The position numbers are program-made. Shown in pieces: positions 19,101 through 37,100 of a stretch of DNA of 64,000 nucleotides (its first letter is position 1; each line of letters opens with the position of its first letter). This DNA is from Convolutriloba macropyga (Eukaryota), in contig NC_134469.1 in NCBI RefSeq assembly GCF_964194025.1, positions 76,756,001 to 76,820,000 on the forward strand. The letters run 5' to 3'.

Positions 19101-22100
19101 CAGTTACCATCTTTCAATTCTCTGACAGGCGGCATTCTTGCTCTTGATCGAAACTGCTCTTATTCATTATTAAAAAGTCAAATGAAAAGAGCTCAGAAAT
19201 AAGTTTTGTTTATTTTCGCTCTAACTTCAATTGCAAACGTTCAAATCCAAGAAATACGTAAGTAAGCTACTTGTTTTTGAGATGCATTTTCAATAACATT
19301 GCAATTGCCGTTTTCTTTAAGTTTTTTACGAGTCTATTGGGAATCGATAGAATTTAATTGGTCTAGATTCTAGAAAAAATGACAAAAGTACTTTTGAAAG
19401 TACTTTTTGTGTGTATAGAAGTAAATCTGGATAGAAGTTTGGGAGTTTTCCATAAAAAGCAGTAAATCGAGTACCACGTGAAATTTATTCAACTTTATTA
19501 TATTTTCTTCATTTCAAGCAAGCATTTGCACTGTGGAGTGCAATGTTTTTGAAGATCAAATTGAAGAGATTTCTCGCTGCTTTCAACTTGCCTTTTTAAA
19601 ATCGAAAGTAGGCAAACTTCAATCAGAAATCTGTATCTTTTCTTTTTTCTAGAATTTAGACCACCTGAATTTCTACCGATTCTCTATTGACTCATAGCAA
19701 AATTGAAGGAAAGCAGCAAGCGCAGTAACTGCCTTTCGAATTCAGGTAGCTTTCTATCTAATTCTGCGATTTTAACGTTTACTTTGTTAACTATTGTAGC
19801 AGTGGCTTATAAAAGCTCTAATAGCGTCATTTGAAGCTAGCTGAGTTAAGCCATTAAACCGCTACTAGATACCGCTACATTAAAAACAAGCCCCAGTCAA
19901 TCGTTCGAGAGCAATCGTCCGGCGTTAGTATTAGTGGGTTATGTTTTACATTTAGTCGACTGCTAAACCACTAGAGAGTTATGACAACTTAAAACTGTAG
20001 TTGCTAAATATTGAAATAAAATGTTTTGTAAATTTCAACGTTTCAGGTTTATCTTCACGGTATTTTTGTTAGGTTGTTACATCATTTGATGATGTCGGCA
20101 ACGTTTCATAGCTTTCAGGTTTGACATGCTCTGATTGAGATTAGAGAAATAGTTGGCTCAATAGATGACATCTTTTGTGAATGCGAAAGTCAAGATGTAA
20201 ATCGAGGCTAGACGCCCAACGGGGTCACTCTCAAGATAGCAGCTGTACAGACTGCTCATCCCCCACAAGTATCAGCCCGGTTCTTACCAGCTGCAGATCT
20301 GGTTTTCCTGAGCCGGATGTATCCGAGCATGCATCTGGAGAAAAATTAGGCTTTATAAGCAACAATGGAAATCGGCGAAAAAGTGAACCGTTGCAAGAGC
20401 GATCTCAATGCCTATCCGACAGTGTGTTCAATTTGAGCTCATCGCTGTTTAATAAAACAGAATTTAACGCCAAAACTTCAGAAGGTATCAATGATATTGC
20501 TCATGAGGCTACAGAGAAGAGCACGTCAACGCCAGTTGTTGGCAAATATGTGAAGAGGTCAACGAAGAGTCCATATATGTTGAGGTCACCTTCTGCAAAA
20601 TGTGTGAGTGGATCAAGGGTTGAAATTTGTTCAAACAAAAATGGGAAGAAAAGAATGCAGGCAATTTCAACACCAGAGTTTAAGTCGCCTATAATACAGT
20701 CTAAGAGACCGAAACTCACAGGGTTCACCTCGGCTGGTAACTTCCAAATTAGTTCAACGATTTCTCCACTGGACAACACTTCAAGCTATAATCAAAACAA
20801 CCATGGTTCAGTTGCTGATGATTTGGGGTCATTTTTTGGTCTACCCGAGCAGGTGCAGCAAATCTTCGAAGAAACTAGAAACATATCCAAACTGTTTGAT
20901 TGGCAAATCGAATGTTTAAATTTAAAATCGGTTCAATGCAGGAAAAATTTGATTTACTCTCTACCCACAAGTGGTGGAAAAACTTTGGTAGCTGAAATTT
21001 TGTTGCTGAAAGAAGTGATTGCGAATGGCAAAGATGCGATTTTCGTGTTCCCGTTTGTTTCGATTGTTCAAGAGAAGCTCAAAGGTTTCATACCTTTTGC
21101 AACGGAATTTGATTTTGTATTAGACGAGTACGCCGGTAGCAGAGGTCAAATTCCGCCAAAGAAGAGGAGCAAAAGTACAATTTTTTTCGGTACTATTGAA
21201 AAAGTGCACATTTTGATTAACAGTTTGATAGAAATTGGAGGACTTGATAGAATCGGGCTTGTAGTGGTTGACGAGTTGCACTTGATAGGAGAGAAAGATG
21301 CGTCTAGTTCTGGTTCTAATCGAGGAGCGGGGCTTGAAGTTATGCTCTGTAAATTGATGCGAGTTTCTCCAAAAACTCATATTGTCGGAATGACTGCTAC
21401 ATTGAAAAATATTGACGAGGTCGCGTCGTTTCTACATGCTGATATTTACACTAATAAATTTCGACCAGTCGAACTGAAGCAAATGTTCAAATTCTCGGAC
21501 GCAATTTTTAGAGTCAGTAGCAGTTCTTTAAGTGGTTTTGAGGAAAGTTTGTTCGAAATGGAAAGAATGTCGTCGTATAATTACACAAAAGAGCAGACAT
21601 TCAAGGATCCCGACCATGTTGTAGGCTTATGCAGTGAAGTTATACCGGAAAGTTCGTGTCTGGTCTTTTGTCCGAGCAAGAAAAACTGCGAAAACGTGGC
21701 ATCTTTGATTTGCAGTTTTATGCCTCCAGCACTACGGTCTGTGAATAAGGAGGAGAGGGAGGCGCTCGTTAATGAGCTGCAAAGTGACGCAGACGGCAAT
21801 TTGTGCGCGGTGCTGGGAAAATGTATTCCATACGGAGTGGCATATCATCACTCTGGGTTGACAATGGATGAAAGAAAGGCTATAGAAGATGCCTATCTTC
21901 AAGGTACAACTATCAAGTTCCAGAAATTGACTTTTGCTGTTGTATTTCATGTCGAATATCACGTACATTGAAAGCGGTCCTGATTGCGCGCCTTGAAATT
22001 CAAGCCGGTATACATTGGTCTGAAACTACGTTTGTTTTTCGTTCTTTGCTATGTCTTTGGGTGCTGCTTCTAGGCTGTTTTGTAATATAGATCCAAATTT

Positions 22101-34100: not shown

Positions 34101-37100
34101 TGCTAAACTTGAGGCAATCAGGTCAATGTTTTTTCTAGTACAATAACCTGCGTAGTTAGAAATAGCTAAATAGCTTCTTTCCTTCAAGGTGAGGAGTGCG
34201 TTGTGAAGTTCCATCGGTTGGGTAGGACCTCATTCAGGAAGGTGAGGGAAAAACGGGACTACCAGAAACGCGGGCGAAAGGTCAACTGGATCTACCTCTC
34301 CAGACTGGCAGCTGTAAAAGAGTTCGCTTTCATGTCCGCTCTGTCCAAGAACGAGTTCCCTGTCCCCAAACCCATTGACACCTGTAGACATGTAGTGGTC
34401 ATGGGGCTGTGCCCGGGATACGTCCTCAATCAGGTACTACTTTTAATCAAGAATCTTTCACTAGTTCAATGCGACTGCTGTCGATAAGCTCTTCCTACAC
34501 ATATCATTGGCACGGTGTTTGAAAACGTTTTTGAGCTTTCTAGAAATCGAACGGTTTAGAAGATCGCACACTTAGAAGATATCTGTAGATTTATGGAACT
34601 TTTTACTTTTTTCCTCTCAACTGTCTTGGCCATTTATAATTGATATTCATTTTTGCACCATGGTTATGTTTATAGAAATTGAAGTGACTAGTCCTCTAAT
34701 GATGCTATGCAAGCCATTATCTGAGTAGAAAAACGCTTCAAATAACATTTTTAATGAAATTAAATAAATGCGATGGCCGTGTTCATTTATGTATACGTGC
34801 TCGAGCCAAACAAAAAAACTGAATGCTTTATATCTGCTATGATTGTGAACCCGTACTGTATTTGCTGGAAAATTTGCAATAGCCAATTTGCTGAGCGGAA
34901 AACTTTCATTGAGTAGTTCAATTCAAACTTCATTTTGAAATGGACCTGCCAACCAAGTAAACTAAATCCTGGCCTCAATTTCGGACTTCTGATACTTTCG
35001 ACACAACGGCTTTTCAATCTTATGTGGTTGTAAATGTTTTATTTTTCAGGTGTATCAATTAGCTGATCCAGCCAGAGTGTTCACTGAATTGATGAACATC
35101 CTGATCAGACTGGCATCAGTCGGTCTTATTCACGGAGACTTCAACGAGTTCAATGTCATGCTCTCAGACGACTATCAAGTATCCGTGATTGACTTCCCTC
35201 AAATGATCTCCACTTCACATTTCAATGCAGACACCCTCTTTAACAGAGACAAAGATTGCGTGCTCACTTTTTTCAGCAGAAGATACGATTTCCAGCCAGA
35301 TGACTCGTTGCCCAGTTTGAAAGACATTGAGAAGATGAACAGTTTGGACGAAGATGTGAAAGCGAGTGGATTCACGGCTGACGTTGAAGACGACTGTAAC
35401 GAGTTTTTAATAGCCAATCAGAGGTCAGACAGTGAGTCGGATGAGGACCAATCGCACGATGAGGAGTCAGAAAAAGAGATTGATGAAAACGCAGAAAACA
35501 ATCATGTTGAACCCTCGAACTCAGATGCACAGCAGGAGTTCCTGGACTGCAGGAGTTCACACACTGAAGTTAGCAATGTTTCCAAAGCTGTTGACACCGA
35601 AACTTCCAATAGAATTAGTGATAAATCGAGCACACGGAACACGGTTAAAACCTCAGAATTGAGCGCCATTCCTCAAACCAACGAGCAACAGGAGCTCGAA
35701 GCTGAATTGGAACAGAACTACGAGCGAATGTACCCAACAAGTACTGAAAAAGCGCGAGATCTGAACGAAGAAGTGGGAAGAGATCTGATGTCCAGATTGA
35801 GATTGGACAGTGACGTGGGCTCTGTTGGTCAACAGTCAAATCGGTCCAAAGCTAGCACCGCGTACGTATCAACCACAATACCTCCAAGTGTCATTAAACA
35901 GAGACTACAAAGGCAAAGTGCAAAACAAGCCAAAAGAGATCAGTGCAGAAAAGCAGTGAAGCATGGAGAGGCTAGTCTGAAAACTAAAAAGAGACAAGAG
36001 ACTAGCGATGACATAAAAACCTCTATTTCTGCGGTTTGGTATTAATATTTATTTGGCTCTGCTCCGAATTCACGACGATGATGATAAAGATGATTTTTAA
36101 ATTAAGTGCTGAGGAATGAAGTGAAATCTTTTGTTCTTTAGATTGTGTCTATAATGGTTGCAGGTTCTATGTGACTTGCATATTTTTGACGGTTTTCAAT
36201 GTAAATTTCTCGCATAATCTGCAATCAAAGATTTGTCCTAAAATTGTCAAATTTTTGTGGCATTCTAAGCTCCTCGGTAATTTTTGCGTTGACTTTCTGA
36301 ACTACGTTTGCTCTCTGGTTGGTTTCGTTTATTGCTGATATCCGTTCTTCTCTATCCATCTAGGCTATATTAAACGGATTCAACAAATTATTTTACAAAA
36401 AATTTGTAATAGTTTTACGGTAAAAAAGTGTTTTATTAATTGAAGGCCAATTATAAAAAATGCATTAAATACAACTTACGCCTTTTTGAGAGATCACAGG
36501 CAGATAACCTTTTAAGTCATGTAACCTTTATTGAGCAATTATATGAATTTTTGGAGTTTGTTGCTCAACGTATGCTAAATCGAAACTCAACAACAACGAA
36601 TATATGGATTTTGCTAACGATTTTTCACGAGCAATCGCTCAGCCAGCAAAGAATACAGAAAAGTATATACAAGAAATTAACAACTGAGGGACATGGATTT
36701 TACTAACAAAACAAACAAAATGAAATTGAACGGCAATCCAAAACTCTAAACAAAACATATTTGAGCATTGCCGTCATAAATTATTTAACTCGATCAACCT
36801 ATTACCTCGTGCAGCACATTTAACTTTCTTTTACAGGCAACCATTTTTTTGTACGTCCCAAGCTCATTCTATTTACAACCATCTTTTTTAAATAGCCGCA
36901 CAGCGATAGCTGGGGCTATTATTGGCCTTCTCTTGGTTTTTTACGACTCGAAGAGGAATATTGAGATTCTACAGGTTTTTTTTAGCAGAAAGCAAGTTTT
37001 TTCATGACTTGAATTTTGACTTCTTTCTGTTCGAGCATTTACCTCCATTTTTGATTGCTGACTTCTGTTTTCGAATATTGCACTTTAACAGTAGCTTCGT

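What the first reader, a model, noticed from the sequence alone, without database searches (positions are those of the whole stretch)
20040..36045. Operon-like HELQ / HAUS5-like / RIOK2 cluster with candidate trans-splice acceptors
Seen: three unrelated housekeeping genes are co-oriented with only 289 bp (23677 to 23967) and 393 bp (32221 to 32615) between stop and next start. Their introns reach 4.5 kb and are full of TEs, and the flanks are tens of kb of repeats. Each ATG is preceded by a TTTCAG acceptor (AG at 20045 and 20117, 23933, 32551; 32-62 nt before the ATG for the nearest one). Known: polycistronic transcription resolved by spliced-leader trans-splicing gives this layout in nematodes, tunicates and flatworms. 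Inference: the TE-free short gaps may be intercistronic regions of an animal operon. Caveat: weak donors exist in the gaps (e.g. GTCAGT at 23872), so ordinary 5'UTR cis-introns and compact promoters remain possible.
Basis: partly seen in the sequence, partly recalled or inferred. Interest (0 to 1): 0.65.

Follow-up and report, generated by a model that had tools for sequence, protein, structure and literature searches.

The report
Possible three-gene animal operon
Three unrelated housekeeping genes lie head to tail with tiny gaps and a splice-acceptor motif before each start, which looks like an animal operon but cannot be proven without RNA data.

Summary
The layout is real. A HELQ-like gene (20181-23677), an unnamed coiled-coil gene (23967-32221) and RIOK2 (32615-36045) lie on the + strand with gaps of 289 and 393 nt.

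For a spliced-leader operon (about 0.5):
- TTTCAG ends 62, 32 and 62 nt before the three start codons. Only 5% of + strand ATGs have one that near, so about 1e-4 for all three.
- Gap 1 leaves almost no room for an ordinary 5'UTR intron.
- The two gaps, and only they, share TTGTTTAA / CAGTTTTTT / AAAAGTTTGA in the same order (0.3% of controls).
- HELQ and RIOK2 relatives sit on contigs of identical length in two related genomes.

Against, or untested:
- Nothing here shows a leader, a polycistronic RNA or even the phylum. The lineage is a fast-evolving animal with no named close relatives.
- Upstream ATGs behind the acceptors, a TATA-like box and initiator-like CAGT sites keep separate compact promoters alive (about 0.3).
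- 'HAUS5-like' rests on a weak fold hint only.

At best this is a new member of a known kind.

The parts
20041..20118 (+). Two TTTCAGGTTT motifs (20041-20050, 20113-20122): candidate acceptors upstream of the HELQ start
   Evidence: The nearer one ends 62 nt before ATG 20181. Upstream ATGs at 20126 and 20165 follow it (read).
20181..23677 (+). HELQ-like (POLQ-like) helicase gene: exon 1 20181-21903, intron 21904-22388, exon 2 22389-23677
   Evidence: Pfam DEAD, ResIII, POLQ_helical, HTH_61, Helicase_C. 51-55% identity to named HELQ proteins. Splice sites. The exons tile P0247 at 67-523 and 526-944. The N-terminus MRKSRCKS is conserved in 3 of 3 relatives.
23678..23966 (+). Gap 1, 289 nt, between the HELQ stop and the gene 2 ATG
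   Evidence: ATTAAA at 23693 and 23794. Donor-like sites only at 23721, 23887 and 23915.
23841..23899 (+). Gap 1 copy of the shared composite element: TTGTTTAA 23841, CAGTTTTTT 23874, AAAAGTTTGA 23890
23929..23934 (+). TTTCAG, candidate acceptor 32 nt before the gene 2 ATG, followed at once by a 9-codon upstream ORF (23935-23964)
23967..32221 (+). Gene 2, a coiled-coil protein of no recognised family: exons 23967-24569, 28992-29196, 31482-32221
   Evidence: ORFs and phase-consistent splice sites. The last exon has 4 relatives only (alignment A1). Exons 1 and 2 and the start codon are not anchored by any relative.
32222..32614 (+). Gap 2, 393 nt, between the gene 2 stop and the RIOK2 ATG
   Evidence: TATAAA at 32311. 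The only donor-like site upstream of the acceptor is at 32294. No AATAAA or ATTAAA.
32346..32408 (+). Gap 2 copy of the shared composite element: TTGTTTAA 32346, CAGTTTTTT 32375, AAAAGTTTGA 32399
32547..32552 (+). TTTCAG, candidate acceptor 62 nt before the RIOK2 ATG. No ATG in the 62-nt leader.
32615..36045 (+). RIOK2 gene: exons 32615-32767, 33124-33319, 34189-34433, 35050-36045
   Evidence: Pfam Rio2_N and RIO1. Splice sites. The exons tile the relative P0123 at 20-70, 71-135, 137-217 and 218-545. The start equals residue 1 of P0125 and P0127.
36231..36238 (+). ATTTGTCC, third copy of an 8-mer found 50, 147 and 186 nt after the three stop codons (also at 23727 and 32368)
   Evidence: Control p about 0.025-0.05, so weak.
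19850..19960 (+). Copy of a dispersed repeat just upstream of the cluster. It limits the unique upstream DNA to about 220 nt.
   Evidence: Other copies near 25470-25570 and 31210-31310.

Best explanation
The three genes form an operon of the animal kind. One promoter upstream of HELQ drives a polycistronic precursor. The upstream cistron is cleaved and polyadenylated inside each gap. A spliced leader is then joined in trans at the TTTCAG acceptor that lies 32-62 nt before each start codon, giving three capped monocistronic mRNAs.

Shown: the gene order, the gaps, the acceptor motifs and their non-random placement, a composite element found only in the gaps, and linkage of HELQ and RIOK2 in relatives.

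Inferred: polycistronic transcription, use of the acceptors, the existence of a leader, and any role for the shared gap element.
For: 1. Three unrelated genes lie in tandem with stop-to-start gaps of 289 and 393 nt. Meanwhile introns reach 4.4 kb, the nearest recognised upstream gene (p53-like) ends about 11 kb away, and no gene was recognised in the 14.7 kb downstream.
2. TTTCAG lies within 62 nt of all 3 of 3 start codons, against 5.3% of 1054 + strand ATGs. 2 of the 6 internal introns use the same hexamer. The p53-like gene has TTTTAG ending 8 nt before a candidate ATG, but that start is not anchored.
3. A cis intron ending at 23934 has only three donor-like sites in gap 1. GTAATT at 23721 would put the first exon in the first 43 nt after the HELQ stop. 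The other two lie 48 and 20 nt from the acceptor. The shortest real intron here is 356 nt. Gap 2 has one donor-like site, 73 nt after the gene 2 stop.
4. The two gaps share TTGTTTAA, CAGTTTTTT and AAAAGTTTGA in the same order. A chain this long is reached by 0.3% of 3000 control pairs. With up to one mismatch, CAGTTTTTT and AAAAGTTTGA never occur near each other upstream of HELQ or in the 850 nt after RIOK2. AAAAGTTTGA is absent from both regions.
5. HELQ relatives P0247 and P0248 come from contigs of 192467 and 677099 bases. RIOK2 relatives P0124 and P0126 come from contigs of exactly the same lengths.
6. The gaps fall within published ranges. These are about 100 bp in C. elegans, a median of 517 bp in Trichuris muris, and a cut-off of under 250 bp between gene models in the chaetognath P. 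gotoi (passages of PMC7986045, and PMC12460157).
7. The lineage sits on a long stem of 1.41 changes per column. By recall, that is typical of trans-splicing phyla.
Against: - No leader, no SL RNA gene and no RNA evidence exists. Rfam found nothing relevant in the window.
- The phylum is unresolved, so trans-splicing in this organism is an assumption.
- Splicing at 23934 would put an ATG first in the gene 2 leader, with a 9-codon upstream ORF ending 3 nt before the real start. Splicing at 20118 leaves two upstream ATGs before the HELQ start.
- No AATAAA lies in either gap. Gap 2 has no ATTAAA either.
- Gap 2 holds TATAAAA at 32311. Both gaps hold CAGT sites that fit an initiator (consensus recalled).
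- Plain local alignment of the two gaps scores 20. That is no better than controls, which average 21.2; 66% of 400 controls reach 20.
- The third relative did not match on contig length: P0246 on 196568 against P0122 on 152565. The window's own two proteins also carry different lengths (48672 and 160062), so a mismatch says nothing.
- Sharing a contig is not adjacency.
Confidence: 0.5

Rival explanations
1. Three separately transcribed genes that are merely packed tightly. Each gap holds a compact core promoter. Transcription starts in the gap, at or near the CAGT or TCAG sites, and the TTTCAG motifs are initiator-like or unused.
For: - CAGTTTTTT in both gaps fits the recalled initiator consensus YYANWYY. 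TTGTTTAA lies 29-33 nt upstream of it, near where a TATA-like box would sit.
- TATAAAA lies at 32311 in gap 2, and TATAAAAG at 19808 upstream of HELQ.
- With a start at the A of TTTCAG, the ATG at 23935 would be too close to the cap to be used, which removes the upstream ORF problem (inference).
- The shared gap element could be a promoter type that HELQ lacks.
Against: - Each gap would have to hold the upstream 3'UTR, its poly(A) site, a promoter and a 5'UTR within 289 or 393 nt, in a genome with kb-sized introns and intergenic stretches over 10 kb.
- The exact hexamer TTTCAG, used by 2 of 6 real acceptors here, lies before all three starts at about 1e-4. Only 2 of the 3 continue as the recalled BBCABW initiator.
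- By my reading, no downstream promoter element sits at +28.
- No CpG or GC rise marks the gaps: GC 0.30 and 0.34, CpG o/e 0.76 and 0.83.
Confidence: 0.3
2. Ordinary cis-spliced 5'UTR introns. Each TTTCAG is a real acceptor but is joined to a non-coding first exon of the same gene, with promoters lying upstream of or inside the preceding gene.
For: - Good donor-like sites lie upstream of HELQ: ATAC|GTAAGT at 19258, and others at 19421, 19462 and 19725.
- GTGAGA at 32294 could pair with the acceptor at 32552 to give a 258-nt intron.
- 5'UTR introns are common in animals (recalled).
Against: - For gene 2 the only usable donor-like site is the weak AATT|GTAATT at 23721. For RIOK2 the first exon would have to start within 73 nt of the gene 2 stop, or inside gene 2.
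- All 6 internal donors begin GTA.
- It would be unusual for every gene to have an acceptor within 62 nt of its ATG.
Confidence: 0.1
3. Chance or another arrangement. The motifs mean nothing and the genes are close by accident, or the downstream genes are translated from multi-cistronic mRNAs without trans-splicing.
For: All the statistics here were devised after seeing the data. The window holds only three or four genes.
Against: The placement of TTTCAG (about 1e-4), the collinear gap element (0.3% of controls) and the shared contigs in relatives are three independent oddities.
Confidence: 0.1

Closest known systems
Caenorhabditis elegans operons resolved by SL2 trans-splicing
   Same: Co-oriented, functionally unrelated housekeeping genes. 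The gap is about 100 bp between poly(A) site and acceptor (passage of PMC7986045). The acceptor is UUUCAG-like, and a U-rich element in the gap is needed for downstream trans-splicing (both recalled).
   Different: No leader is known here. The stop-to-start gaps of 289 and 393 nt still include the 3'UTRs. The shared gap element lies 35-60 nt before the acceptor in gap 1 but 145-175 nt before it in gap 2. It shows no stable fold. The organism is not a nematode by the tree.
Chaetognath operons (Spadella cephaloptera, Paraspadella gotoi)
   Same: A large genome with operons (1.05 Gb in S. cephaloptera). About half of the genes are trans-spliced and 18% lie in operons. Operons were called at under 250 bp between genes, they are enriched for housekeeping functions, and the lineage evolves fast (passages of PMC2481426, and PMC12460157).
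   Different: I could not show that the window is from a chaetognath. The published S. cephaloptera SL2.0 and the shared 5' part of its leaders are not in the window, which is uninformative. The one dissected chaetognath operon has only 3 bases between poly(A) site and acceptor.
Trichuris muris operons
   Same: Long intercistronic distances (median 517 bp) in a genome with long intergenic distances (passage of PMC7986045).
   Different: That is a nematode with SL2-type leaders. Nothing links this window to it.
Tunicate operons (Ciona intestinalis, Oikopleura dioica)
   Same: A single leader serves both monocistronic and operonic genes. The first gene need not be trans-spliced (passages of PMC7986045).
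   Different: The intercistronic distance is about 1 bp in Ciona and at most 60 bp in Oikopleura, and those genomes are compact. Here the gaps are several hundred nt and the locus is rich in repeats.

Membership tests
Spliced-leader-resolved animal operon | Neighbouring genes on one strand with short intercistronic gaps | tested here: met
   Gaps of 289 and 393 nt from stop to ATG.
Spliced-leader-resolved animal operon | A 3' splice acceptor just upstream of each downstream cistron with no cis donor to serve it | tested here: inconclusive
   TTTCAG ends 32 and 62 nt before the two downstream starts. Donor-like sites in the gaps are few and badly placed, but they are not absent. Use of the acceptors is not shown.
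Spliced-leader-resolved animal operon | A common non-genomic leader on the mature mRNAs | not testable with these tools
   No transcript sequences of this organism could be read. The protein relatives carry no nucleotide data.
Spliced-leader-resolved animal operon | One polycistronic precursor, with no promoter in the gaps | not testable with these tools
   There are only sequence hints in both directions: TATAAAA at 32311 and CAGT sites, against no GC or CpG rise.
Spliced-leader-resolved animal operon | SL RNA genes in the genome | tested here: inconclusive
   No Rfam hit at gathering score, and no relevant hit at E <= 1. No match to published chaetognath leaders. Only this 64-kb window could be searched.
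Spliced-leader-resolved animal operon | The organism belongs to a lineage that trans-splices | tested here: inconclusive
   The window plus two relatives form a fully supported clade on a 1.41 stem, and its place among phyla is unresolved.
Spliced-leader-resolved animal operon | A poly(A) signal for the upstream cistron between its stop and the next acceptor | tested here: inconclusive
   ATTAAA at 23693 and 23794 in gap 1. Gap 2 has only TATAAA and AATAAG. There is no AATAAA anywhere, including the 650 nt after RIOK2.
HELQ / POLQ-like helicase | DEAD-type helicase core followed by the POLQ helical and winged-helix regions | tested here: met
   DEAD 1.5e-15, Helicase_C 4.8e-06, HTH_61 7.8e-14, POLQ_helical 7.2e-26. 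Named HELQ proteins match at 51-55% identity.
RIO2 kinase (RIOK2) | N-terminal Rio2 winged helix plus the RIO kinase domain | tested here: met
   Rio2_N 5e-13 and 2.3e-08. RIO1 1.5e-21 and 1e-18. Named RIO2 kinases appear among the hits.
HAUS5 (augmin subunit 5) | Match to the Pfam HAUS5 model or to solved augmin subunit sequences | tested here: not met
   No HAUS5 among the Pfam hits of the three exon pieces at E <= 10, nor of the 5 members of A1. No augmin chain in four PDB sequence searches.
HAUS5 (augmin subunit 5) | Fold like the augmin subunit | tested here: inconclusive
   The model of the last exon is poor (pLDDT 64, pTM 0.25). Its two best PDB fold hits are 8at2_E and 7sqk_E, both augmin entries, at E 0.5 and 1.3, probability 0.20 and 0.11. 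0 of 21 hits reach E <= 0.001. That chain E is HAUS5 is recalled, not checked.

The most novel reading that the evidence does not exclude
A three-gene operon kept together across an animal lineage that has no annotated genome and may not be known to trans-splice. Both of its intercistronic gaps would carry a dedicated composite element (TTGTTTAA, CAGTTTTTT, AAAAGTTTGA) that couples 3' end formation of the upstream cistron to trans-splicing of the next. That would be an independent counterpart of the nematode U-rich element.
Probability: 0.12. Interest if true: 0.6.

Novelty: new member of a known kind. Interest (0 to 1): 0.4.

Why it matters
Operons resolved by trans-splicing have arisen several times in animals. 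Why they arise and what holds them together is still debated.

A conserved HELQ / coiled-coil / RIOK2 cluster in a repeat-rich genome would be a clean test case, because it combines long repeat-bearing introns with repeat-free gaps of a few hundred bases. It would also offer a candidate cis element that can be mutated.

If the genes turn out to have their own promoters, the locus is simply a tight gene island and of little wider interest.

Tried and rejected
- Naming the organism. Three protein searches gave no named relative closer than 51-55% for HELQ. Two quick trees disagreed on the position: next to a Paramuricea-containing group (39 of the 120 listed hits plus the window), and an unsupported polytomy (34 chosen proteins plus the window; none dropped by my length filter). 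I therefore name no phylum.
Contig sizes for the gene 2 relatives therefore stayed unknown.
- HAUS5 identity. Pfam, PDB sequence searches, a profile of 5 sequences and the protein atlas (best score 0.76) all gave nothing.
- CpG islands as promoter marks. CpG o/e is about 0.9 everywhere, so this is uninformative.
- A hairpin in the shared gap element. The z-scores are -0.29, 0.05, 0.37 and -1.12, so there is no support.
- Plain local alignment of the two gaps scores no better than controls.
- The 691-nt satellite as an SL RNA gene array. There is no Rfam hit and nothing convincing by eye.
- Published chaetognath leaders are not in the window.
- TE domains in the introns: 0 of 17 ORF pieces at E <= 0.01. 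The LINE-like look of 26.4-28.3 kb is my impression only.
- The prokaryote-type promoter scan, the genome-contig collection (prokaryotes only) and complex prediction were not used because they do not bear on the question.

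
Full report
**What is there.** The window has no N and 30-43% G+C. Nothing in it looked human.

The + strand carries three genes between 20181 and 36045.
- The first is a HELQ (POLQ-like) helicase in two exons, 20181-21903 and 22389-23677. It has Pfam DEAD, ResIII, Helicase_C, HTH_61 and POLQ_helical domains. 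Named HELQ proteins match at 51-55% identity.
- The third is RIOK2 in four exons: 32615-32767, 33124-33319, 34189-34433 and 35050-36045. It has Rio2_N and RIO1 domains.
- The four RIOK2 exons, compared one by one, tile an unnamed full-length relative (P0123) at residues 20-70, 71-135, 137-217 and 218-545. Two other relatives (P0125, P0127) begin at the same methionine.
- The HELQ N-terminus MRKSRCKS is kept in 3 of 3 relatives.

I searched all models exon by exon. I made no joined spliced model, so no search or fold of a whole spliced protein was done.

**The middle gene.** Gene 2 has three phase-consistent exons: 23967-24569, 28992-29196 and 31482-32221.

It is a helical, probably coiled-coil protein. 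Its last exon has only 4 relatives at E <= 0.001 among 1.84 billion representatives, and all of them are exon-sized.

- None in Pfam, even at E <= 10.
- None in four PDB sequence or profile searches.
- None in the protein atlas.

A low-confidence model (pLDDT 64) has two augmin chains as its best fold hits, but at E 0.5 and 1.3. I treat the label as a lead, not a finding. The gene 2 start codon is not anchored by any relative.

**The observation.** The coordinates are right. The gaps are 289 and 393 nt. TTTCAG ends 62, 32 and 62 nt before the three starts, with a second copy at 20041.

The + strand holds 48 TTTCAG. Only 5.3% of its 1054 ATGs have one within 70 nt upstream, so all three together is about 1e-4. 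The test was chosen after seeing the data. Two of the six internal introns use the same hexamer.

The p53-like gene further upstream has TTTTAG ending 8 nt before a candidate ATG. That start is unproven.

The claims about repeats are only partly borne out.
- Real repeats: a 691-nt satellite of at least 7 copies, a Gypsy-like element and a BEL/Pao LTR element, degenerate tandem repeats, and a dispersed repeat in the introns and just upstream of HELQ.
- Not shown: 0 of 17 intronic ORF pieces hit a TE domain.
- Not classified: 36-50.8 kb.

**Evidence bearing on an operon.**
- *Room for cis introns.* Gap 1 has three donor-like sites before the acceptor. One is weak and lies 43 nt after the HELQ stop. 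The other two lie 48 and 20 nt from the acceptor, and the shortest real intron here is 356 nt. Gap 2 has one, 73 nt after the gene 2 stop. An ordinary 5'UTR intron is therefore awkward for both downstream genes. It remains easy for HELQ.
- *A shared gap element.* Both gaps share TTGTTTAA, CAGTTTTTT and AAAAGTTTGA in the same order within about 60 nt. Only 0.3% of 3000 control pairs of non-coding segments reach such a chain. The element is missing upstream of HELQ and after RIOK2. Against this, plain local alignment is no better than controls, and no fold stands out.
- *A weak 3' motif.* ATTTGTCC follows all three stop codons within 190 nt (p about 0.025-0.05).
- *Linkage in relatives.* HELQ and RIOK2 relatives lie on contigs of identical length (192467 and 677099) in two related genomes. 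These two genomes are close to each other, so they count as about one independent lineage. Sharing a contig is not adjacency.

**Evidence pointing the other way.**
- Splicing at 23934 would put an ATG first in the gene 2 leader, with a 9-codon upstream ORF ending 3 nt before the real start. Two upstream ATGs follow the HELQ acceptor.
- There is no AATAAA in either gap or after RIOK2.
- Gap 2 has TATAAAA. The CAGT sites of the shared element fit an initiator, with a TA-rich box about 30 nt upstream. These consensus sequences are recalled, not tested.
- Above all, no leader, SL RNA gene or transcript could be examined.
- The phylum is unresolved. The window and two relatives form a fully supported clade on a very long stem. 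It lies outside the well-supported vertebrate, mollusc-annelid and Paramuricea-containing groups.

**Comparison with known systems.** The gaps fit nematode-type operons: about 100 bp in C. elegans and a median of 517 bp in Trichuris. They also fit the cut-off of under 250 bp used for a chaetognath. They do not fit the near-zero gaps of tunicates. This rests on passages of PMC7986045, PMC12460157 and PMC2481426. I read passages found by term search, not the whole papers. Supplements were closed.

**Verdict.**
- Spliced-leader operon: about 0.5.
- Separate compact promoters: about 0.3.
- Cis-spliced 5'UTR introns: about 0.1.
- Chance or other arrangements: about 0.1.

If it is an operon, it is a new member of a known kind. 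The one element that could be new is the composite motif confined to the gaps.

**Unchecked.**
- The eukaryotic contigs of the relatives.
- The closed metagenome and viral collections.
- All RNA-level evidence.

Noticed in passing
window 5863-7592 (+): Two ORF pieces carry the two halves of a P53 DNA-binding domain (E 1.3e-19 and 9.7e-16). This is a p53-family gene about 11 kb upstream of the cluster, on the same strand. TTTTAG ends 8 nt before a candidate ATG at 5890.
   Followed up: partly
window about 12600-18000: Tandem array of a 691-692-nt unit, at least 7 copies at 89-100% identity. It is A-rich on the + strand and has no Pfam or Rfam hit.
   Followed up: partly
window 50782-57793 (-): BEL/Pao-type LTR retrotransposon with Peptidase_A17, integrase and DUF5641/DUF1759 domains. 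Its two LTR stretches are 95-98% identical, 6523-6529 nt apart, so the insertion looks young.
   Followed up: partly
window 299-4436 (-): Gypsy-like pol pieces: aspartyl protease, RVT_1, RNase H, integrase.
   Followed up: no
window 19850-19960, 25470-25570, 31210-31310: A dispersed repeat of about 100 nt with the core GTCGTTCGAGAGCAATTC. One copy sits directly upstream of HELQ and two sit in gene 2 introns.
   Followed up: partly
window 29924-30741: Degenerate tandem repeats of about 160 nt inside gene 2 intron 2, with 4-6 copies at 62-83% identity.
   Followed up: no
window 37190-37545: A C-rich, low-complexity tract of CCCCTACCTAC-like units, open in all three + frames. It explains the GC skew of -0.24 there.
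   Followed up: no
window 21904-22388 and proteins P0246-P0248: The single HELQ intron is present in the window and, judging by where its ORF ends, in relative P0246. Relatives P0247 and P0248 read through as single ORFs of 951 and 953 aa. The intron was therefore gained or lost within this lineage.
   Followed up: partly
whole window: CpG observed/expected is about 0.9 in genes, introns and transposons alike (whole window 0.88). There is little sign of germline CpG methylation of either.
   Followed up: no
protein P0123 against window 32558-32614: The relative's RIOK2 protein carries 19 extra N-terminal residues before the conserved MGRFD. They loosely resemble the in-frame translation of the window's 5' leader, so the leader seems partly conserved and is open in that relative (by eye).
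   Followed up: no
window 9128-9352: A 110-nt unit repeated 2.1 times.
   Followed up: no
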